This document shows positions 4,079 to 15,734 of a stretch of DNA of 15,734 bases, in pieces (the first letter of the stretch is position 1; each line of letters opens with the position of its first letter). Made by a program: the position numbers and the translations under genes. This DNA comes from a virus (Duplodnaviria > Heunggongvirae > Uroviricota > Caudoviricetes): positions 1-15,734 of IMG/VR virus record IMGVR_UViG_2645727991_000015; one strand, given 5' to 3'. Under the pieces are notes generated by a model. It was not told the DNA's origin. It saw only the letters and a list, made by a program, of their open reading frames with translations, and ran no database searches.

Positions 4079-5176
4079 ATGAAAAAATTAACAGTGGCAA
4101 TTTCTGCTGTAGCTGCATCAGTACTGATGGCGATGTCTGCTCAGGCAGCTGAAATTTATAATAAAGACAGTAACAAGCTGGATCTGTACGGGAAAGTTAA
4201 TGCTAAGCACTACTTCTCCTCTAATGATGCAGATGATGGTGATACTACTTATGCCCGTCTTGGCTTCAAAGGTGAAACCCAAATCAACGATCAACTGACT
4301 GGTTTCGGTCAGTGGGAATATGAATTCAAAGGCAACCGCGCTGAATCTCAAGGTTCCTCCAAAGATAAAACCCGTCTTGCCTTCGCTGGCCTGAAATTCG
4401 GTGACTACGGCTCCATCGATTACGGCCGTAACTACGGTGTAGCATACGACATCGGTGCGTGGACTGACGTTCTGCCAGAATTCGGTGGCGATACCTGGAC
4501 CCAAACAGATGTGTTCATGACTGGTCGCACCACTGGTGTAGCAACCTATCGTAACAACGACTTCTTTGGTCTGGTTGATGGTCTGAACTTTGCTGCTCAG
4601 TACCAAGGCAAAAACGATCGTAGCGATTTCGATAACTACACCGAAGGTAACGGTGATGGCTTCGGTTTCTCTGCTACCTATGAATACGAAGGATTCGGTA
4701 TCGGTGCAACTTATGCGAAATCTGATCGTACCGACACTCAAGTTAATGCAGGGAAAGTTCTTCCTGAAGTATTTGCTTCCGGTAAAAATGCAGAAGTTTG
4801 GGCCGCAGGTCTGAAATATGACGCTAACAACATTTACCTGGCCACTACCTATTCTGAAACCCAGAATATGACTGTATTTGCTGATCACTTCGTTGCTAAT
4901 AAAGCTCAAAACTTCGAAGCTGTTGCACAATATCAGTTCGATTTCGGTCTGCGTCCATCCGTTGCTTACCTGCAATCTAAAGGTAAGGATCTTGGAGTAT
5001 GGGGCGATCAGGACTTAGTCAAATATGTTGATGTAGGTGCAACCTATTACTTCAACAAAAATATGTCTACTTTCGTTGATTACAAAATCAACCTGCTTGA
5101 CAAAAATGACTTCACTAAAGCACTCGGTGTAAGCACTGATGACATCGTTGCTGTAGGTCTGGTTTACCAGTTCTAA
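4079..5176 (+). CDS. nmpC: Outer-membrane general porin, OmpC/NmpC (Lc) family, prophage-encoded moron
   Basis: 365 aa with a signal peptide ([25 protein letters not shown]), Gly/Tyr/Asp-rich beta-strand repeats and the C-terminal ...VGLVYQF ending in Phe, typical of enterobacterial 16-strand porins. Its position between Q and the holin on the opposite strand matches nmpC in DLP12-type prophages. Strong RBS (aaaagggctcacgATG). Confidence 0.88.
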
Positions 5177-7239: not shown

Positions 7240-7423
7240 GCTTCACCTCCGCAGAGGTCAAACGCTAGATGCAAAGAATTGCAGGTGCATTTCTGCATCT
7301 GTGAAGGGAGAAGAGAGTTTGGATTGTATGTGCGCATAAACGTCCCCGTTTAGCGCAGAAGTCACCGGAGTTGTTCAGGCTCCGATGACATGATTATGGC
7401 GGGTTGATAACGAAAAATCAAAA

Positions 7424-7621: not shown

Positions 7622-8257
7622 TTACGGCACAAATGAATCTATAGCATCAAGCAACTCATTCACATTCGTATAACACCCAAGAAGAAATGGTCTATTAGAA
7701 TGAGGAGGAGCTGCATTTAAACTTTGTTTATTTAGTGCCTTCGCTCTTTGTCTGGCATTAGGAATACCAAGTCTAATTTTCTTATACAACGTAGCATCGG
7801 CTTTATTATAATCCTTTATACCCACTGATAGTAAATCTTTTTTCAAAGTAGAGTTTTTCTTTAGATCATCAAAACTTGAGTAAGGTGTATTCTTAAATGC
7901 AAAGTGTTGTAAAATCCACAATTCAAAACAAACATTTGACAACGCAATATTAATATTGTTTGCATGGGCTAAATCCCATGCTTCATGGTGTAATGTGTGT
8001 GGGTATTTTGTGACAGCCTCTCTATCATATACAACCCAAAATTCATCATCATCCGATGTATCACCACTTTCCTTGTGTTTAATTGCAGCCTTTACTAAGG
8101 CTATTGGTGTGTTATATTTTATATCAGGGATATGTATAACTTTTGCTTTCTCACTAGCAAATTCATCGATATAACCCTGCAAGTACATAGGTTCTGTTTT
8201 AGACCCTTCGCAAAAAATATGCATTCGTTTCTCTAATTTTCTCACGTTTTTTGCCAT
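7622..8257 (-). CDS. RloB-like protein (AbiLii-like; putative effector/partner of the upstream ATPase)
   Basis: 211 aa with N-terminal motif ...HIFCEGSKTEPMYLQGYI..., which I recognise as the conserved CEGxxTEPxY signature of the RloB family (recall, not searched). Strong RBS AAGGTGA; separated by 6 nt from the upstream ATPase gene; AT-rich codon usage unlike the flanking phage genes. Confidence 0.65.
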   Translation of the reverse strand: MAKNVRKLEKRMHIFCEGSKTEPMYLQGYIDEFASEKAKVIHIPDIKYNTPIALVKAAIKHKESGDTSDDDEFWVVYDREAVTKYPHTLHHEAWDLAHANNINIALSNVCFELWILQHFAFKNTPYSSFDDLKKNSTLKKDLLSVGIKDYNKADATLYKKIRLGIPNARQRAKALNKQSLNAAPPHSNRPFLLGCYTNVNELLDAIDSFVP

Positions 8258-8263
8258 GATCTA

Positions 8264-9604
8264 TCACCTTAAATCTTCTGGAATATCATCGATGTTACCA
8301 AATACTGTTAAATCAGTATCTTCAGGTTCACCACCTGTTACCTCAATGATAAAATCCTTTATTTTCATATAGTTAATTGATGGGACGCCACCAAAACGCC
8401 CTTCATCATACCACTTGTTAAAAGGTGAGTTAGCCTTAACCTTTTCTTTATCAAACTCATCTAAACTATAAACTTCGGTTACACCTTTTTTCTTTTCAGT
8501 AAACCAAATCTGATCTCTTCTCATATTTTCTGATTTCATCAACTCAATGTTATGAGTTGTAAATATGAGCTGAGAGCCTACTTTATTAACCTCACTATCG
8601 TTAAACAGTCTGATTAAAAGTGCAGCCAAATGTGGATGCATGCTGTGGTCTATTTCATCGATAATTAACACTCGATTTATTAAAAGACCAGAAATTAGGG
8701 CAGGTGTTAATTCAAATAACCTACGAGTTCCTGCTGACTCATTTTCAATATCTATATCAGCACATTCTCCACCCTCCATGTCATGCTCAAATTTAAAGCT
8801 AAATCGATTTTCAGCCAAAATTCTTCGTTTCATATCTTCCGGCATTTCATCAGGTAGCTTAATATCTAGTTCTTTATTTTCGACAATCCTTAGTTGGTTT
8901 ATACCCGTATCAACCAATGATAAGAAGTTACCGGAAAAACGAATAAGCATGTCTCTAAATTTCTCATCCTCAAGATGAAGAGCATTAAAACTTGATTCCA
9001 TTCCAATAGGACAAATTAACTGCGAAAAGTACTCATATACTTCCTTAGCAATCTCTGGAGCCTCAGCGACAGTGCCGATCTTTGATAGATAAGAGTTATT
9101 TTTAGAAAATGGAATTTTCTTTACTCCACCTTTGAATTGCGCCCCAAATTTAATATTCTCCCAACCATTATTCACACGATAGAACAAATTCGATGGCTGC
9201 TTGGAGTAATAACAATCTAAACTCTCCAATATAATTTCTTTTTGAAGATAATGTATTTTATATTTAAATTTCAAATCATTGATCACAAAGTCAATTTCAA
9301 ACTTTACTGGCTTTGAGATTGTTTTTTGACAAAGAGAATATGGTTCATAACAAGGGATATCCTCGCCATCTTTCAACGAAAAGCTATCCTCAACAAGATA
9401 ATTTAATGCAGAAAACACCTTTAGAAGGTTTGACTTCCCTGAAGCATTAGGACCATAAATTCCAACGGTACGTACAACCCGCTCATTGCTTTTGGGAAGA
9501 ACAAGCAAATTATCGCTTAAGTGGTTACTTGTTGAACTACGCAGATCAAAGTTAACCTCTTCTTTGATCGACCTAAAATTCTCAACTTTTAAGGAAATTA
9601 TCAT
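8264..9604 (-). CDS. ABC-type / AAA_21-like ATPase (AbiLi-like; putative anti-phage abortive-infection ATPase)
   Basis: 446 aa with Walker A GPNASGKSN, Walker B VLIIDEIDHSMHP and an H-loop-like LIFTTHN. AT-rich; forms a tight two-gene operon with the RloB-like gene. Confidence 0.75.
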   Translation of the reverse strand: MIISLKVENFRSIKEEVNFDLRSSTSNHLSDNLLVLPKSNERVVRTVGIYGPNASGKSNLLKVFSALNYLVEDSFSLKDGEDIPCYEPYSLCQKTISKPVKFEIDFVINDLKFKYKIHYLQKEIILESLDCYYSKQPSNLFYRVNNGWENIKFGAQFKGGVKKIPFSKNNSYLSKIGTVAEAPEIAKEVYEYFSQLICPIGMESSFNALHLEDEKFRDMLIRFSGNFLSLVDTGINQLRIVENKELDIKLPDEMPEDMKRRILAENRFSFKFEHDMEGGECADIDIENESAGTRRLFELTPALISGLLINRVLIIDEIDHSMHPHLAALLIRLFNDSEVNKVGSQLIFTTHNIELMKSENMRRDQIWFTEKKKGVTEVYSLDEFDKEKVKANSPFNKWYDEGRFGGVPSINYMKIKDFIIEVTGGEPEDTDLTVFGNIDDIPEDLR

Positions 9605-9960: not shown

Positions 9961-10161
9961 TCAAATCGATAATTTCTTCAGGTGTCTCTTTAACGTCGAT
10001 ATACTCGCCAGAGGATATTTCAGAGTTGTAATACCATGCAGAGTCATGATAACGATATGCCCTACGGCAACAAACACAGGCTCGAAGACTGTTTCAGGTT
10101 CCCAGCCATATTTCCCCTGACGCTCAATCGTCGCTTGCTGGCTCAATTTGATGATTTTCAT
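9961..10161 (-). CDS. Hypothetical small protein, start coupled to the ren stop (possibly a truncated remnant of a nin gene)
   Basis: 66-aa ORF MKIIKLSQQATIERQGKYGWEPETVFEPVFVAVGHIVIMTLHG... whose ATG overlaps the ren stop in an ATGA arrangement. No recognisable family; lies at the edge of the AT-rich insert. Confidence 0.35.
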   Translation of the reverse strand: MKIIKLSQQATIERQGKYGWEPETVFEPVFVAVGHIVIMTLHGITTLKYPLASISTLKRHLKKLSI

Positions 10162-10451
10162 GTCTTAGCTCTCCCATATACCGCCAATACCCGTTTCATC
10201 GCGGCACTCTGGCGACACTCCTTAAAAATCAGATTCGTGCTCACCTTTCCTTCCCGTTCTTCTCTGGTAGCGAACCGGTAATACACCGTTCGCCAGACCT
10301 TACCATCAACGACCAGGATTCCTGCCCGCGCCATTTTAGCCGCAGCCTGATTTATGCTGGTTACGGTTGCGCCTGTTACCGCGGCAACGTCCTGCGCACA
10401 GAAGTTCTTATGAGTCCCCAGGTAATGAATAATTGCCTCTTTGCCCGTCAT
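10158..10451 (-). CDS. ren: Ren (Rex-exclusion resistance protein)
   Basis: 97 aa MTGKEAIIHYLGTHKNFCAQDVAAVTGATVTSINQAAAKMARAGILVVDGKVWRTVYYRFATREEREGK... matches lambda Ren by recall; immediately downstream of P. Confidence 0.88.
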   Translation of the reverse strand: MTGKEAIIHYLGTHKNFCAQDVAAVTGATVTSINQAAAKMARAGILVVDGKVWRTVYYRFATREEREGKVSTNLIFKECRQSAAMKRVLAVYGRAKT

Positions 10452-11149
10452 ACACTTACTCCTTTCAGCCCAAACTTAGCTTTGATTTCTGCGATCTTCG
10501 CCAGAGCCTGTGCACGATTTAGAGGTCTACCGCCCATGACAGGAAGTTGTTTTACTGGTTCAGGTATAGCCTCACCACGGTTAATTCGTGCGGCCATACA
10601 GGACAGTTCATCGGCAGCCTTGCGCCGTAATTCCGCGTCAGTCAACGCATTGGCCCGCATGTTCTGATACAGGTTGGTAACCAGCCAGTAGTGCGCGTTT
10701 GATTTCCACGGATAAGACTCTGCATCCGGATACAGGCCACGCTTCCGGCAATACTCGTAAACCATATCAACCAGCTCGCTGACGTTTGGCAGCCCGGCGT
10801 TAACAGATGCTTCTTCCCGGCACCAGGCGACAAACTGCCCGGGTGATGGCAGGAATGGTCGATTCTGCCGACGGGCTACGCGCATTCCAGCGTTAACCTG
10901 TTCCATTGTGGTGATCCCGTTTTCCCGGAAAGCCAGAACCCACTGGCGGCGGATTTCGTTCAGTTCATTCTGGTCACGGTTAGCCAGGCTCGCCGGGAAA
11001 GTTGCCAGTAACTGGCTGAACACACCGTTGATGATCTGCGCTACCTGCTGTACCTGCGGCTTTTCGTCGTACTGTTCCGGCATATTGTTGGCGATCCGGC
11101 GCATCTGCTCACGGTCAAAGTTAACCATCTGTGCGGCGATGTTTTTCAT
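10448..11149 (-). CDS. P: Replication protein P (DnaB helicase loader)
   Basis: 233 aa MKNIAAQMVNFDREQMRRIANNMPEQYDEKPQVQQVAQIINGVFSQLLATFPASLANRDQNE... is near-identical to lambda P by recall; overlaps the O stop. Confidence 0.93.
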   Translation of the reverse strand: MKNIAAQMVNFDREQMRRIANNMPEQYDEKPQVQQVAQIINGVFSQLLATFPASLANRDQNELNEIRRQWVLAFRENGITTMEQVNAGMRVARRQNRPFLPSPGQFVAWCREEASVNAGLPNVSELVDMVYEYCRKRGLYPDAESYPWKSNAHYWLVTNLYQNMRANALTDAELRRKAADELSCMAARINRGEAIPEPVKQLPVMGGRPLNRAQALAKIAEIKAKFGLKGVSV

Positions 11150-12075
11150 AAATCCACCCCGTAAATCCAGTCAGTGTTCGTCAGGTCGAGTTTTGGTTTG
11201 CCGGCTGTCACGCCAGCCTGTTGCTTGTTTCGGTTGATTTCGAGCTGGGTCCACTTGTCGCGGAGTTTGGCCGGACTCAGCACGTTACCGGACCAGAAGT
11301 TGTCCTGGCATGCCCAGCGGAACAGCACGCACATGTCGCGGTGGTTACGTCCGTCACGTTCACGCATCAGGCGGATATCGTTAGCCCACCCTGCAAAATT
11401 CGGTTTTCTGGCTGATGGCGCGATGGTCTTCACCATGTCAAACATCCACTCTGCGGCGGTCAGGTCTTCTGCTGTCCCCCACTTGCTGCCACTCTGAATT
11501 GCAGCATCCGGTTTCACCACAGGAAGGTCGTTTTCTGGCTGGTCAGAGGATTCGCCAGAATTCTCGGACGAAAAAGGTTTTATATTGTCTTTTGTTAGTT
11601 TGTCTTTTGTGTTTACCTGATTCGGGTAAACGCCTTTACCTGATTTGGGTAAACTTTTCTTACCTGATTCAGGTAAATTTACCTCTTTCAGGTAAACTTT
11701 ATTTTTCTTACCTGATTCGGGTAATGTTGACCATTCACTGACCACATTATTAATGCCGATATTTCGCCCGCTCTGAATAAGAATCCCACGCTTTACCAGA
11801 ACGCTTTTTGCAGCAGAACACTTGTGCGGCAATATCCCGGTCAATTCGGAAAGTTGCTCGTTGCTCACCCAATCCAGTCTTTTATTAAAGCCATATGTTT
11901 TGCGCATGACAGCCAGGAAGACCAGAAGCTGGTGCTGTGTTAATCCGGCCAGCATCACAGCTTCCAGCAACTCATTTGCAATGCGCGTATAACCATCATC
12001 GAGATCTGCCACGCGCGGCTCCTTTTGTGCCGCATCCGGCACTGGAAAATTGAATATCTCAGCAGTGTTTGCCAT
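11146..12075 (-). CDS. O: Replication initiator O (lambda-like C-terminal domain, non-lambda N-terminal iteron-binding domain)
   Basis: From the ATG at 12075 (RBS GGGAG): MANTAEIFNFPVPDAAQKEPRVADLDDGYTRIANELLEAV... aligns with lambda O MTNTAKILNF...VADLDDGY..., and the C-terminal half (SSENSGESSDQPENDL...WIYGVDL) is near-identical to lambda O by recall. An alternative in-frame start at 12165 (the track ORF) overlaps the upstream gene stop in an ATGA arrangement. Confidence 0.88.
   Translation of the reverse strand: MANTAEIFNFPVPDAAQKEPRVADLDDGYTRIANELLEAVMLAGLTQHQLLVFLAVMRKTYGFNKRLDWVSNEQLSELTGILPHKCSAAKSVLVKRGILIQSGRNIGINNVVSEWSTLPESGKKNKVYLKEVNLPESGKKSLPKSGKGVYPNQVNTKDKLTKDNIKPFSSENSGESSDQPENDLPVVKPDAAIQSGSKWGTAEDLTAAEWMFDMVKTIAPSARKPNFAGWANDIRLMRERDGRNHRDMCVLFRWACQDNFWSGNVLSPAKLRDKWTQLEINRNKQQAGVTAGKPKLDLTNTDWIYGVDL
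11575..11724. repeat. ori: Replication origin inside O: AT-rich tract (11575..11612) plus five 17-bp iterons TTACCTGATTCGGGTAA (11613..11629, 11636..11652, 11660..11676, 11679..11695, 11708..11724)
   Basis: Five direct repeats with the same 17-mer core and inverted ends (TTACC...GGTAA) read directly from the sequence, spaced 19-29 bp start to start, with an AT-rich segment on the transcription-downstream side. Same organisation as lambda ori but a different iteron sequence. Confidence 0.8.
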
Positions 12076-12161
12076 AATTACTCCCGCAATGAGTGTGTTA
12101 CGATTTGCACCTGAAAGTCGGTTCTGTTCCAGCAGACCGGCTTTCGCCATTTCTGAACCTG

Positions 12162-12707
12162 TCATATTGCCCCCAGCATGGTGGTGACCATCGCCATCAG
12201 TGGACCAGCCAAATCCGGGTCCACACGAAACATCGACACAATGCCTTCACTCATCTCCTTCAGTTTCTGGTGGCGTGGTGCGTTGAGAATGACAGCCTGT
12301 TTTGCCTCACTGAGTTCCTTTTCCATTTCAGCCAGCCGAGCCATGAAGCTATCCTGCTCAACCAGGTGGCCGCGATATTTCAGCGGTAGTACTGCCAGAA
12401 TTGCTGGAGTCAGTTCACGCACGTTATTTCGGTATTTTTCAGAATCGAATTTGTTATCGAGAAAGCGGAACAGCTTCTGGCGTGCACGACTGACATCATC
12501 AGGAAAATCGATAGTGCCGCCGCCCTGTGCTCGATACTAATTCACAATGAGTGCGGCAACGACATCCTGATTATCTACAGCCGACCAGGCGCGGATGGCA
12601 TCACGGATTTTTTCGTGGCCTGGCACCTGTTTTATTTGAGAACGATTTATCACCGCAGTCGGGATAAATCCGCTAGTCTGTTGGTATGTAAGTGGTTGCA
12701 TAGTCAT
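12162..12707 (-). pseudogene. cII-position gene (YdaT-like by recall) interrupted by a single in-frame TAG at 12537..12539
   Basis: A 56-codon ORF (MTMQPLTYQQTSGFIPTAVINRSQIKQVPGHEKIRDAIRAWSAVDNQDVVAALIVN, stop TAG) and the track ORF 12162..12422 are in the same frame; the only stop between them is that TAG. Read-through would give about 181 aa (...VN*YRAQGGGTIDFPDD...LTPAILAVLPLKYRGHL...). Confidence 0.55.
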
Positions 12708-12731
12708 TGCCTTATCAGTTAACGCCGCAGT

Positions 12732-12959
12732 TTAGGCGGCAGAATTACTCGCGTTAAACAATGGTGCGAGGTCGGGACGAATATCTGCTGGTTTAATCTT
12801 TCCACCAGTGGCTGAGACAATTTTCATTACATAGCGGGCATCAATTCCGCCACCGTGTAGCCAACGCCAAACAGTGGGTTGGGCTACACCGCATAGATCT
12901 GCCAGTCGTTTTTGACTACCTGTAATACTGATTGCGAGTTGAATGGTTTGATTTGTCAT
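12732..12959 (-). CDS. cro: Cro-like HTH DNA-binding protein (YdaS/Cro family)
   Basis: 75 aa from the ATG at 12959 (RBS AGGAA): MTNQTIQLAISITGSQKRLADLCGVAQPTVWRWLHGGGIDARYVMKIVSATGGKIKPADIRPDL...; helix-turn-helix-like segment; divergent from the CI-like repressor across a roughly 110-bp operator region. Confidence 0.7.
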   Translation of the reverse strand: MTNQTIQLAISITGSQKRLADLCGVAQPTVWRWLHGGGIDARYVMKIVSATGGKIKPADIRPDLAPLFNASNSAA

Positions 12960-13069
12960 TATCAATTCCTACTGGTATTGCAATGAATGAATAATAGCAA
13001 TGCGTATTAATCCAAGCAATAGCAAAACGTGTTTTGACCATCAATACGCAAGCGTATAAATTAAAACTT
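12960..13069. promoter_or_regulatory. Divergent immunity control region (putative OR operators with pR and pRM)
   Basis: 110-bp AT-rich intergenic region between the divergent cro-like and cI-like genes. Contains repeated ATAGCAAT-type motifs (12993..13009, 13016..13028) and an imperfect palindrome atacgcaagcgtat (13044..13057). No Shine-Dalgarno sequence precedes the cI ATG, consistent with a leaderless pRM transcript as in lambda. Confidence 0.55.
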
Positions 13070-13762
13070 ATGAAAAAAGAAACTCTTGCTGATCGCTTAA
13101 ACCTAGCGATGGAACAATCTGGAATGTCTCAAGGCGCTCTTGCAAAGGCGTCTGGCGTAGCTCAACCCACAATCTGGAGACTGACAAGCGGCAACGCGCG
13201 CGGCTCAACAAAAATTGTTGAAATAGCTAATGCATTGGGTGTTCGAACAGAATGGCTCTCATCAGGCATAGGCCCGATGAGAAATGACGGTCAACAATCA
13301 GGGAAGCCTGCTGTCAGCCATTCCAAATACTTCAAAATTGACGTTCTTGATATAGAAGTCAGTGCCGGGCCGGGTGTAATCAACCGTGAGTTTGTAGAAG
13401 TTCTACGCTCGGTTGAGTACTCGTTTGACGATGCTCGTCACATGTTCGATGGCAGGAAGGCGGAAAATATCCGCATCATTAACGTGCGTGGTGACAGCAT
13501 GTCAGGAACGATCGAACCAGGTGATCTGCTGTTCGTTGATATCACGGTTAAATCTTTCGACGGTGATGGTATCTATGCGTTTCTGTACGACGACACAGCC
13601 CATGTAAAGCGCCTGCAAATGATGAAAGATAAGCTACTGGTTATCTCTGATAACAAGAGCTACTCACCGTGGGACCCGATCGAGAAAGACGAGATGAACC
13701 GGGTGTTCATCTTCGGTAAGGTTATTGGGAGCATGCCGCAGACGTACAGGAAGCATGGTTAA
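13070..13762 (+). CDS. cI: CI-like prophage repressor (N-terminal HTH, C-terminal S24 LexA-like autopeptidase domain)
   Basis: From the ATG at 13070: MKKETLADRLNLAMEQSGMSQGALAKASGVAQPTIWRLTSGN... (HTH), with C-terminal ...INVRGDSMSGTIEPGDLLFVD...HVKRL... (Ser and Lys residues of the S24 catalytic dyad in the usual spacing). The track ORF starts at an upstream TTG (13034). Confidence 0.85.
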   Translation: MKKETLADRLNLAMEQSGMSQGALAKASGVAQPTIWRLTSGNARGSTKIVEIANALGVRTEWLSSGIGPMRNDGQQSGKPAVSHSKYFKIDVLDIEVSAGPGVINREFVEVLRSVEYSFDDARHMFDGRKAENIRIINVRGDSMSGTIEPGDLLFVDITVKSFDGDGIYAFLYDDTAHVKRLQMMKDKLLVISDNKSYSPWDPIEKDEMNRVFIFGKVIGSMPQTYRKHG

Positions 13763-13843
13763 TAATTAGCCTGTAGCTTTTTAAGGCACACTCTTTTCAA
13801 GAATATTAAATAGAACGCTATATGGCATAAACAAGGACTTAGG

Positions 13844-14317
13844 ATGGAAAAGCCTAGCTTCCCACCTCTTCTTACAGCAGGATTTCATGATATGGATAGT
13901 GATGGCATCAAGTCTCTTTGTGTCGACACCTTCCCAAAATCCGTTAGAAGAAGTATGCTATACTGTAATTTTATACAGCTTATTGAGCAATTTAAACTTG
14001 TTAATCAGCAGTGTCTATGTTTCTCTGAAGTGTGGATCGATGGTTCATTCACTACAGAGAAACCTGAACCTGATGACATAGATATACTCGTGGTCGTCGA
14101 TTATTTGGCCCTAAACTCTTTGCCAAACACGCTGATGCCATTGGTTAGCTCATTGTTAAATAGAGATTTTATTAAAGAAAACTACAGCATTGACGTTCTT
14201 TTGCTGCCTGAAAATCATCCAGAAATCGATTATAGTGAAAGGCGAAGTTACTGGAGAGGGTGGTTTGGTTTTGATCGGAAGGAGAATCCTAAAGGCCTCG
14301 TGAGGGTAATGTTATGA
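13844..14317 (+). CDS. Hypothetical protein with nucleotidyltransferase-like motif, first gene of the rex-position operon
   Basis: 157 aa; contains WIDGSFTTEKPEPDDIDILVVVD, resembling the GS...DxD signature of minimal (Pol-beta superfamily) nucleotidyltransferases. Directly downstream of cI with no intervening terminator; stop overlaps the next start (ATGA). Confidence 0.5.
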   Translation: MEKPSFPPLLTAGFHDMDSDGIKSLCVDTFPKSVRRSMLYCNFIQLIEQFKLVNQQCLCFSEVWIDGSFTTEKPEPDDIDILVVVDYLALNSLPNTLMPLVSSLLNRDFIKENYSIDVLLLPENHPEIDYSERRSYWRGWFGFDRKENPKGLVRVML

Positions 14318-15246
14318 GCGAAGAAAAAACATTCAACTCCCTCAAGGAGCGAATTGCGTTCATTCAACGCGATGTGGATCTGCTTGCTCAAAATAAGGGG
14401 AGATCATTTGCTGATGACATTATATTTAGATCACTTGACTCCCATCTGAGCGATCTCCGAGAGAGACAACGTGCAATCGATAACCAACATCCTTTACGTG
14501 ATTTCATGGAGTTGAGATTAAAAGGTGTTTTGGTCGATTTCGGGTCTATTCCGTTAGATATTCTATCTGTAATTTCAGGTAATCTCGCATCCCTTGTACA
14601 GAAAGCAGTTTACCGACTTGGATCTGGGAAAGATTCTAGTCGTGTGCCGATTGATGTTAAAAAATCATTAGACATGAGATTGGCAGACTTGCGTCCAGGT
14701 TCGACGAAGTTAGGTGTTACTTTTTCTACTGGTTCTTGCGAGCTCATCGAAACAGTATCCAGTCATGCTGTTAAGGAGATTTTTGCACTACTCTCATCCA
14801 TTGATGAAGAAACATTCACGGCTAAAATTGCCGAAATTGGTTCGCAATCAACAGCTAACCTAAAAAACATCATAAATGAGTGCGAAAAATATAGTCTTAA
14901 CTTTGATCTTACTTGGATTGGACCTTTAAGTGATGGTACCAGACAAGTGTCAATTTCTTCAGAAGATATAAAAAAACTGAATGCTCGCTTAGCTTTAACG
15001 AAGGTCATTCAGCTACCGGATGAGCATATATCAGGCGAACTTGCTATTTTATCCATGTACGGGAAATTGGAGATTGCAAGCGAGCTTGGAAAAATAAAGG
15101 CTTCTTATCCGATTGATATGTTAGGAGAAATTCAAAGTAAATATAAAGTTGGTGAACGAATATCGCTCGTAGTAAGCGTTTCTGAGATTCACAATGAAAG
15201 ATTAGGAACATCACGACGTAACTACATGGTTAAAAAAATCGAATAG
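14314..15246 (+). CDS. Hypothetical protein (310 aa), second gene of the rex-position operon
   Basis: Long ORF translationally coupled to the upstream gene; followed by a strong intrinsic terminator. No family recognised from sequence alone. Confidence 0.5.
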   Translation: MSEEKTFNSLKERIAFIQRDVDLLAQNKGRSFADDIIFRSLDSHLSDLRERQRAIDNQHPLRDFMELRLKGVLVDFGSIPLDILSVISGNLASLVQKAVYRLGSGKDSSRVPIDVKKSLDMRLADLRPGSTKLGVTFSTGSCELIETVSSHAVKEIFALLSSIDEETFTAKIAEIGSQSTANLKNIINECEKYSLNFDLTWIGPLSDGTRQVSISSEDIKKLNARLALTKVIQLPDEHISGELAILSMYGKLEIASELGKIKASYPIDMLGEIQSKYKVGERISLVVSVSEIHNERLGTSRRNYMVKKIE

Positions 15247-15253
15247 TGATGCT

Positions 15254-15281
15254 ACCCGGCCACCGTGCCGGGTTTTCTTTT
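15254..15281 (+). terminator. Rho-independent terminator ending the cI/rex-position operon
   Basis: Hairpin cccggc-caccgt-gccggg at 15255..15272 followed by TTTTCTTTT, 8 nt after the stop codon of the 310-aa gene. Confidence 0.75.
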
Positions 15282-15379
15282 GCCTCCCCCTCATCACACA
15301 AACCGTTCGAAAAACCACCATAACCCCCGCTTCAGTTATCGCTATGCGATGCAAGTCACAAAATTAATTCTTTTTGCTA

Positions 15380-15480
15380 TCAAGCATTTAATATCAAAAC
15401 ACATCAGCCAATAGCGATAAGTATTGATATCACCAATAGCAATAGCTATTATCACCATATCGCAACAACACAACGATACG
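15380..15480 (+). promoter_or_regulatory. Putative OL/pL region (operator-like repeats upstream of the expected N operon)
   Basis: Contains CAATAGC-type motifs similar to those in the cro-cI intergenic region (ccaatagcgataag, caccaatagcaatagctatt), the palindrome AATAGCTATT (15452..15461) and two TATCACC copies. Position matches OL/pL in a lambda-like layout; promoter hexamers not resolved. Confidence 0.4.
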
Positions 15481-15734
15481 GCAACCACCTGATTCACCGT
15501 TGCGATGACCGCTTAGATCCGCAGCTTGAATTTCAGCAGGCTCCGGGGAGTGCGAGGGGTGAAGCGGACGCGTGAACGTCGGTGTGACCAGCTGAAATCA
15601 ACTCAACACCTCATACCTCAGTCGCTTCAACGAGGCGTATGAAACGACAATAACTCAGTCCGCCTGGCGCCGATTATTCTGGCCGGTTTTGTAACCTGAG
15701 TGTCATTTACATGATCCAACAGGAAATGGCGTGA

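What the first reader, a model, noticed from the sequence alone, without database searches (positions are those of the whole stretch)
12162..12707. cII-position gene split by a single in-frame amber (TAG) codon
Two minus-strand ORFs between cro and O are in the same frame and separated only by TAG at 12539..12537 (...ALIVN-TAG-YRAQGGGTIDFPDD...). Together they would encode about 181 aa. From memory the downstream part (...LTPAILAVLPLKYRGHL...) resembles YdaT-family proteins, which follow YdaS-type Cro proteins in some prophages. This could be a recent nonsense mutation (pseudogenisation of a toxin-like or cII-like regulator), a laboratory-derived amber allele, or a case where the downstream GTG/ATG start gives a shorter product.
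Basis: seen in the sequence. Interest (0 to 1): 0.6.

Follow-up and report, generated by a model that had tools for sequence, protein, structure and literature searches.

The report
Amber-stopped cII-like prophage regulator gene
A single G-to-T change has put a stop codon into the lysogeny-establishment regulator (a YdaT-type, cII-like gene) of a lambda-like prophage of E. coli; the mutation is real and inherited in a small lineage, but it is an ordinary loss-of-function mutation.

Summary
On the minus strand, a TAG at 12539..12537 interrupts one reading frame that otherwise runs to the TGA at 12164..12162. Homologues show the true start is most likely the ATG at 12701, not 12707. That gives 179 codons with the stop at codon 55.

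The gene is a YdaT-family, CII-like regulator (Pfam PF06254, PHROG 163). It lies between a YdaS-type cro and replication gene O in a DLP12-site lambdoid prophage.

Every relative examined has GAG (Glu) at this codon, and more distant homologues have Glu or Gln. All 33 aligned homologues are single ORFs of 178-180 aa. The nearest intact haplotypes differ from the window by two bases in 5.6 kb, one of which is this base.

It is not an assembly error. The same TAG occurs on at least 24 public contigs from isolate genomes, gut-type metagenomes and raw-read assemblies. None of the complete E. coli genomes that could be compared at this site carries it.

The stop falls in helix α2, upstream of the DNA-recognition helix and the tetramerisation helix. 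The product should therefore be non-functional.

Expected consequence: lysogen maintenance is unaffected, and released phage would establish lysogeny poorly. In the window's own strain an ISEc10 insertion adds a second lesion.

Verdict: a real, recent, ordinary pseudogenisation.

The parts
12537..12701 (-). 5' part of the ydaT/cII-like gene: 54 sense codons plus the premature TAG. An alternative upstream ATG at 12707 would give 56 aa.
   Evidence: The start is set by homologues and annotated relatives.
12537..12539 (-). Premature amber codon TAG (codon 55). The ancestral codon is GAG (Glu). The mutated base is 12539 (A on the + strand, ancestral C). The following base is T, giving a UAG-U context.
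   Evidence: DNA alignment; allele table; mismatch map.
12162..12536 (-). Remaining 124 in-frame codons plus TGA. They encode the α2-α3 loop, recognition helix α3 (residues 70-83), α4-α5, the long helix 119-138 and the C-terminal helices. In the window they are identical to the nearest intact haplotypes.
12162..12422 (-). Mechanical 86-aa ORF from GTG (codon 94). Gene finders call it on TAG-allele contigs. It has no GGAG/AGGA within 20 nt upstream.
12732..12959 (-). cro (YdaS-type HTH, 75 aa), immediately upstream in the same operon.
   Evidence: Pfam PF15943 at 1e-14; annotation of relatives.
13070..13762 (+). cI repressor (HTH plus S24 peptidase, 230 aa from the ATG; 242 aa from TTG at 13034). 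It is divergent from cro and intact.
11146..12165 (-). Replication gene O (339 aa). Its ATG overlaps the ydaT TGA (ATGA), so O normally starts where ydaT translation ends.
15638..15734 (+). End of an ISEc10 (IS21-family) element inserted between the cI-side cargo genes and kil. This is a second lesion in this strain's prophage, and the contig ends inside it.

Best explanation
This is a recent, heritable loss-of-function nonsense allele (Glu55 GAG to TAG) of the YdaT-type CII-analogue gene of a lambdoid prophage integrated at the DLP12 (fimZ/argU-side) site.

Shown here:
- The change is a single base on an otherwise unchanged haplotype.
- It is present in many independent assemblies.
- It truncates the protein inside helix α2, so the 54-aa product lacks the recognition helix α3 and the oligomerisation helix.

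Inferred from work on YdaT of CP-933P and Rac and on lambda CII:
- No active regulator is made, so the repressor-establishment (pRE-like) promoter is not activated after infection or induction.
- The resident prophage stays repressed, because maintenance needs only cI, which is intact.
- Any released phage would lysogenise poorly (a clear-plaque, amber-suppressible phenotype).
- The allele is neutral in a lysogen, or mildly favoured if this YdaT is toxic when derepressed, so it is carried vertically.
- In the window's strain an ISEc10 insertion near kil shows further decay.
For: Single-base cause:
- PhiR30_1, D2, 4A7 and E. coli 582 all have GAG and an intact 540-nt gene.
- The nearest intact haplotypes, L009 and L012, differ from the window in 10100-15700 only at 12539 and 15610.

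Real and heritable:
- TAG is found in L005, L008, L010, L011 and L014-L023. These come from NCBI isolate assemblies, ENA metagenomes and Logan read assemblies made by different assemblers.
- The 54-aa fragment is indexed in 36 blocks, with 24 contigs read.
- The identical Glu allele is on at least 1000 contigs.

Family:
- PF06254 at 5.5e-29 and PHROG 163 at 1.4e-65.
- A profile of 33 homologues hits PDB 8BT1 (YdaT of CP-933P) at 7.5e-9.
- All 33 homologues are 178-180 aa single ORFs with Glu or Gln at this column.

Position of the stop:
- The AF2 model has helices at 46-58 (α2) and 70-83 (α3).
- The invariant motif R-x-R-Q-K-L-F-R-x-L-D-N lies in α3, downstream of codon 55.

Function of the missing parts:
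- YdaT residues 1-96 without the tetramerisation helix do not bind DNA (PMC9986795).
- α3 residues H56/R57 are needed for binding (PMC11879457).
- YdaT activates a pRE-like promoter (PMC8630535).

No rescue visible: there is no tRNA gene in the window, and UAG-U is a strong termination context in E. coli (established knowledge, Poole et al. 1995).
Against: - No expression or phenotype data exist for this phage.
- This YdaT subfamily is only distantly related to the two characterised proteins (phmmer E about 1e-3 for the single sequence), so its targets and its role in establishing lysogeny are inferred.
- The host genome outside the contig was not seen, so a chromosomal amber suppressor cannot be excluded.
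- The allele's presence on contigs with different O/P segments (L016, L018, L021, L017) could mean it has survived recombination. That would argue for more persistence than a purely recent, neutral lesion, although these are metagenome or read assemblies and may be chimeric.
- The AF2 model is of moderate confidence (mean pLDDT 66.5).
Confidence: 0.85

Rival explanations
1. Sequencing or assembly error: the TAG is not in the real genome.
For: It is a single-base difference in a draft contig. No complete E. coli genome that could be compared at the site carries it, and no copy was found in the GTDB representative genomes, IMG/VR or JGI metagenome contigs.
Against: The same base is found in at least 14 other fetched loci from different projects and assemblers. 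Four of them are NCBI isolate assemblies, and two are 100% identical to the window over more than 10 kb.
Confidence: 0.01
2. The gene stays functional through amber suppression or stop-codon readthrough, in a host or phage with a suppressor tRNA, giving conditional or low-level full-length YdaT.
For: TAG is the codon read by the classical supE/supF suppressors. Gln, which supE inserts, occurs naturally at this column in part of the family. The downstream 124 codons have no further damage.
Against: No tRNA gene is in the window. Natural E. coli isolates rarely carry amber suppressors, and UAG followed by U terminates efficiently (established knowledge). The absence of further damage is equally expected for a very recent mutation.
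Confidence: 0.04
3. The split creates a new product. A C-terminal fragment (from GTG codon 94 or ATG codon 120) carries only the oligomerisation helices. It acts on its own, for example by poisoning the YdaT tetramers of co-resident or incoming lambdoid phages.
For: Gene finders call the 86-aa ORF. It retains the Pfam YdaT match at 2.8e-19 and the predicted long helix 119-138. An AGGA lies 7 nt upstream of the ATG at codon 120 (sequence). The allele is seen with several O/P variants.
Against: There is no Shine-Dalgarno motif before the GTG. Termination 115 nt upstream makes re-initiation unlikely. No homologue is organised as two genes. The same internal ATG exists in intact alleles, so nothing new is created. 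The O/P variants are all in metagenome or read assemblies.
Confidence: 0.05
4. Laboratory-derived amber allele, from a mutagenised or engineered phage.
For: Amber alleles of cII-type genes are classical laboratory tools.
Against: The allele is found in draft genomes of isolates and in metagenome assemblies from several projects. It is integrated next to chromosomal fimbrial and response-regulator genes (L014). It is absent from the 50,697 phage records (all GAG or non-matching).
Confidence: 0.02

Closest known systems
YdaT of cryptic prophage CP-933P (PDB 8BT1) and YdaT of Rac (E. coli K-12)
   Same: Same Pfam family (PF06254). Same position between a YdaS-type cro and the replication genes. 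The predicted architecture matches: a helical HTH domain followed by a long helix. The α3 motif is conserved (QK-[IL]-FR-[WF]-LD).
   Different: The relationship is distant (single-sequence E about 1e-3, profile 7.5e-9). This protein has about 25 extra N-terminal residues and a longer C-terminal helical tail (179 versus 141 aa). Here the gene is interrupted at codon 55. Its DNA target is unknown.
Lambda cII amber / cII-null mutants (clear-plaque class)
   Same: Same gene position and the same expected logic: loss of the activator of repressor establishment, while maintenance by cI is unaffected.
   Different: There is no sequence-family membership (no Pfam Phage_CII match). This is a natural allele in a prophage, not a selected laboratory mutant. 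The phenotype has not been measured.
Intact cII-like genes of Bievrevirus-type phages (4A7, D2, PhiR30_1)
   Same: These are 96.7-99.1% identical in DNA over the 701-base segment 12100-12800 (3' end of cro, ydaT, 5' end of O), with the same neighbours (cI, cro, O, P, ren).
   Different: All have GAG and a 179-aa product. The window has TAG.
Prophage decay by point mutation and IS insertion (for example DLP12, Rac, Qin in K-12)
   Same: The integration site is the same as DLP12's. A regulatory gene is lost and an IS element is inserted in the early-left region.
   Different: Decay is at a very early stage: the replication, lysis, Q and terminase genes in the window are still intact.

Membership tests
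YdaT family (Pfam PF06254; PHROG 163 CII-like transcriptional activator) | Sequence match to the family model above the curated threshold | tested here: met
   The repaired 179-aa sequence scores 100.9 bits against a cut-off of 21, E 5.5e-29. PHROG 163 gives 1.4e-65.
YdaT family (Pfam PF06254; PHROG 163 CII-like transcriptional activator) | Gene lies directly after a YdaS/Cro-type gene, before the replication genes and opposite a cI-type repressor | tested here: met
   The order is cI (+), cro PF15943 (-), ydaT (-), O PF04492 (-), P (-).
YdaT family (Pfam PF06254; PHROG 163 CII-like transcriptional activator) | N-terminal helical HTH (POU-like) domain with recognition helix α3, followed by a long oligomerisation helix | tested here: met
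   The profile of 33 homologues aligns to 8BT1 at 7.5e-9 over positions 22-106. The AF2 model shows helices 29-40, 46-58, 70-83, 88-112 and 119-138, at moderate confidence (pLDDT 66.5).
YdaT family (Pfam PF06254; PHROG 163 CII-like transcriptional activator) | Uninterrupted ORF encoding both domains | tested here: not met
   TAG at codon 55. By descent the window copy is a member of the family, but as a pseudogene.
YdaT family (Pfam PF06254; PHROG 163 CII-like transcriptional activator) | Binding to an inverted repeat of the TTGATT-N6-AATCAA type near ydaS/ydaT and activation of a leftward establishment promoter | tested here: inconclusive
   Two one-mismatch sites occur (12948-12965 over the cro ATG, and 7404-7421), against 0.15 expected. 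The first is not conserved in D2 or 4A7, and neither site type is found in PhiR34_1 or IdasGreatGrand. Binding itself cannot be tested with these tools.
Lambda CII family (Pfam Phage_CII) | Sequence match to the lambda CII model | tested here: not met
   Only PF06254 was reported at E up to 0.01. The protein is an analogue by position and inferred role, not a homologue by sequence.
YdaS/YdaT toxin-antitoxin pair (database label 'toxin YdaT') | YdaT is a toxin neutralised by YdaS | not tested
   The literature argues against a true TA pair (PMC8630535, PMC5917428). Rac YdaT is toxic when expressed (PMC11879457), while CP-933P YdaT is not (PMC8630535). Nothing here bears on this subfamily.
Programmed stop-codon readthrough / phage-borne suppressor | A suppressor tRNA or a conserved in-frame stop among relatives | tested here: not met
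   No tRNA in the window. No relative outside this haplotype has a stop here. Only 15.7 kb of the genome is visible.

The most novel reading that the evidence does not exclude
The amber allele is not neutral debris but is kept because it pays. One possibility is that it removes a regulator that is harmful to the host when the prophage is partly derepressed. Another is that it releases a C-terminal oligomerisation fragment that interferes with the CII-type regulators of other lambdoid phages in the same cell. Its occurrence on at least 24 contigs, with more than one O/P variant and both with and without the IS, is the only hint.
Probability: 0.05. Interest if true: 0.5.

Novelty: already known. 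Interest (0 to 1): 0.13.

Why it matters
The finding matters little beyond annotation. The two ORFs should be annotated as one ydaT/cII-like pseudogene, not as two small genes, one of them labelled 'toxin'. The allele marks a small E. coli lineage. It is also a ready-made natural cII-type amber mutant. In an IS-free carrier strain it could be used to test whether this widespread 179-aa YdaT subfamily, present in about 40% of complete E. coli genomes, really controls the establishment of lysogeny. It is a modest counter-example to the remark in PMC11879457 that the ydaT locus stays unmutated.

Tried and rejected
1. Looked for the published YdaT operator (TTGATT-N6-AATCAA). Two one-mismatch palindromes were found, but they are not conserved among phages with the same ydaT. 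I kept this only as a lead.

2. Read the + strand over the ydaT start for a lambda-type CII site. TTGC-N7-TTGC is present, but the spacing differs from lambda's N6 and it is only a 4-mer repeat. I rejected it as uninformative.

3. Checked whether the G-to-T change creates a promoter. It produces TAGTAT, a -10-like hexamer, but there is no usable -35 or TG motif upstream, and the scan did not flag it. Rejected.

4. Searched for a phage-borne suppressor tRNA or a known RNA family. None was found.

5. Scanned for the TAG allele in GTDB representative genomes, IMG/VR and JGI metagenome contigs. None was found. The allele turned up only through exact-protein look-ups.

6. The 61-mer test in complete genomes reaches only the 209 genomes close enough around the site. 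For the other roughly 2000 genomes with the gene, only the annotation of the listed hits (intact 'toxin YdaT domain-containing protein') speaks.

Its siblings of 46-56 aa are contig-edge fragments, so it probably is one too.

8. A literature search for the source accession found nothing.

Full report
**What is in the sequence**

Read on the minus strand, 12707..12162 is one frame of 182 codons. It has a TAG at 12539..12537 and a TGA at 12164..12162. The mechanical ORF list shows the two pieces as 12537..12707 (56 aa) and 12162..12422 (86 aa, GTG start).

One correction concerns the start. Annotated relatives and all 33 aligned homologues begin at MQPLTY, which is the ATG at 12701. In phages with a different cro module, this ATG is preceded by AAGGAG. 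The gene is thus 179 codons, the stop is codon 55, and the GTG of the second piece is codon 94.

**What the gene is**

The repaired protein matches Pfam PF06254 (YdaT_toxin) at 100.9 bits against a cut-off of 21. It matches PHROG 163, 'CII-like transcriptional activator', at 1.4e-65.

The gene sits between a YdaS-type cro (PF15943) and replication gene O. The ATG of O overlaps its TGA. It lies opposite an intact cI with an S24 peptidase domain.

The window is the early-right, nin, Q, lysis and terminase part of a lambdoid prophage of the 4A7 / D2 / PhiR30_1 (Bievrevirus) type. In one carrier contig the prophage lies next to an integrase, a response regulator and fimbrial genes, which is the DLP12 site (L014). 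The window is the whole of contig JHSU01000047.1 of assembly GCA_001266125.1 (L015: same length, 100% identity).

**The stop is one substitution**

Aligned with PhiR30_1, D2 and 4A7, the codon is GAG in all three. The only other differences from PhiR30_1 are three bases near the 3' end.

The closest intact haplotypes, L009 and L012, differ from the window across 10100-15700 at just two positions, 12539 and 15610. The downstream 124 codons carry no further damage. The change is G to T on the coding strand (C to A on the + strand at 12539), and it is recent relative to all other divergence in the region.

Across 33 homologues of 64-97% identity, every protein is a single ORF of 178-180 aa. The column holds Glu, or Gln in one subgroup.

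**It is not an error**

Exact-protein look-ups found the same TAG in these assemblies:
- NCBI isolate assemblies GCA_017117335.1, GCA_039603515.1 and GCA_019587545.1.
- ENA metagenome assemblies ERZ15609681, ERZ28619318, ERZ28619491 and ERZ27279576.
- Logan read assemblies SRR28368749, SRR34450882, SRR15417312, DRR567776, SRR19768666 and SRR27129228.

Further similar places were reported but not shown. The 54-aa fragment is indexed in 36 blocks of the collection, and 24 contigs were read. Two isolate contigs are 100% identical to the window over more than 10 kb.

By contrast, the identical protein with Glu is on at least 1000 contigs. The gene is found in 2213 of 5426 complete E. coli genomes. 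None of the 209 complete genomes that a 61-mer centred on the site can reach has TAG. A 20-mer with TAG is absent from the GTDB representatives, IMG/VR and JGI metagenome contigs. The allele is therefore real and heritable, but confined to a small lineage.

**Where the stop falls in the protein**

A profile of the 33 homologues aligns to the solved YdaT of CP-933P (8BT1) at 7.5e-9. An AlphaFold2 model of a 97%-identical intact homologue (mean pLDDT 66.5) has helices at 29-40, 46-58, 70-83, 88-96, 98-104, 107-112, 119-138, 143-160 and 162-178.

Codon 55 lies in the second helix. The invariant block R72-x-R74-Q-K-L-F-R79-x-L-D-N lies in the third helix. This corresponds to the recognition helix α3 of 8BT1 (QKIFRWLD).

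Three published results bear on what is lost:
- YdaT is a tetramer held by a long helix after the HTH domain, and the isolated domain 1-96 does not bind DNA (PMC9986795).
- α3 residues H56 and R57 of Rac YdaT are required for binding (PMC11879457).
- CP-933P YdaT switches on an otherwise silent pRE-like promoter between ydaS and ydaT (PMC8630535).

The 54-aa product has one and a half helices of the DNA-binding domain and nothing else.

**Can anything rescue it?**

No tRNA gene or Rfam family is in the window. The stop is followed by U, a context that terminates efficiently in E. coli (my own knowledge, Poole et al. 1995).

The GTG at codon 94 has no GGAG or AGGA within 20 nt upstream. The ATG at codon 120 has an AGGA 7 nt upstream, but it is equally present in intact alleles. 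A chromosomal suppressor cannot be excluded, because only this contig is available.

**Most likely mechanism and consequence**

Shown: a single-base nonsense mutation that removes both functional elements of the protein and is inherited in a lineage.

Inferred, by analogy with the YdaT work above and with lambda cII mutants:
- The establishment promoter for cI is not activated.
- The existing lysogen is unaffected, because cI and its operators are intact.
- Phage released from such a lysogen would give clear plaques and lysogenise poorly.
- Plaques would turn turbid on an amber-suppressing host.
- The mutation is invisible to selection while the prophage is repressed. It may be slightly favoured if this YdaT, like that of Rac, harms the cell when expressed.
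- O normally starts at the ydaT stop (ATGA overlap) and now lies 375 nt beyond the last translated codon. Some loss of O translation or transcriptional polarity after induction is possible, but this was not tested.

**A second lesion**

The last 97 bases of the window (15638-15734) are the end of an ISEc10 (IS21-family) element. Such elements occur at up to 22 copies per genome.

The junction is found in no complete genome. IS-free TAG carriers (L008, L014, L018, L019) continue into kilR about 93 nt further on. The IS end is also present in L020 (DRR567776 and six similar contigs).

The order of events is therefore TAG first, then the IS in a sub-lineage. This fits progressive decay of the prophage. 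The IS sits between the cI-side cargo and kil, and so probably cuts the early-left operon off from its promoter (inference).

**An open point**

Four TAG contigs from metagenome or read assemblies (L016, L017, L018, L021) differ from the window in the 3' half of O and in P (10233-11527). They carry alleles seen in other phages, and are identical from about 11550 to 15637. This is either recombination after the mutation arose or chimeric assembly of co-resident prophages. The isolate assemblies are all identical, and I cannot decide between the two.

**Comparison and verdict**

The gene belongs to the YdaT family by sequence, synteny and predicted fold. It is not a sequence relative of lambda CII, although it occupies that gene's place and, by inference, does its job. 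The window copy fails one defining feature, an intact ORF, and should be annotated as a pseudogene rather than as two genes.

Nonsense decay of prophage regulators is a familiar phenomenon, and nothing here calls for a new mechanism. Interest is low. The allele is mainly useful as a natural amber mutant for testing the function of this very common YdaT subfamily.

Noticed in passing
window 15638-15734: The contig ends in the terminal 97 bases of an ISEc10 (IS21-family) element inserted about 93 nt before kilR. The junction is in no complete E. coli genome. It is absent from IS-free carriers of the TAG allele and shared with DRR567776-type contigs.
   Followed up: yes
window 7622-9604 (minus strand): A two-gene AbiL-type abortive-infection cargo lies between ren and ninB: AbiLi (446 aa, 1.8e-83) and AbiLii/RloB (211 aa, 8.7e-21). 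PhiR30_1 carries an acyltransferase and a lipoprotein gene at this place.
   Followed up: partly
window 13844-15246 (plus strand): Two overlapping genes lie directly after cI, in the rexA/rexB position. They match the PADLOC candidate defence system PDC-M63 (A: DUF6932, 7.4e-43; B: 4e-42).
   Followed up: partly
window 12948-12965 and 7404-7421: Two nearly identical 18-bp palindromes (TTGATAA-N4-AAATCAA) are each one mismatch from the published YdaT box. The first covers the cro start codon. About 0.15 such sites are expected per window, but the first is degraded in D2 and 4A7, and neither type is found in phages with another cro.
   Followed up: partly
window 12050-12078 (plus strand): A sigma-70-like promoter (TTGAAT-17-CATAAT with TG) lies inside the 5' end of O and points back into the 3' end of ydaT. 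Lambda's pO/OOP antisense RNA promoter has the same place and direction.
   Followed up: no
window 12537-12570 (ydaT codons about 46-56): Many public contigs end inside ydaT at this point. They appear as 'regulator, partial' proteins of 46-56 aa. This suggests a repeat boundary shared by co-resident lambdoid prophages, which breaks short-read assemblies.
   Followed up: no
window 4079-5176 (plus strand): A 365-aa porin gene (OmpD/NmpC-like, PF00267) lies between Q and the holin, as in DLP12-type phages.
   Followed up: no
L004 5350-5652 (E. coli 582, NZ_CP120568.1): In this close relative with an intact ydaT, the neighbouring ren gene is annotated as a pseudogene with an internal stop. This is another single-gene lesion in the same prophage type.
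   Followed up: no
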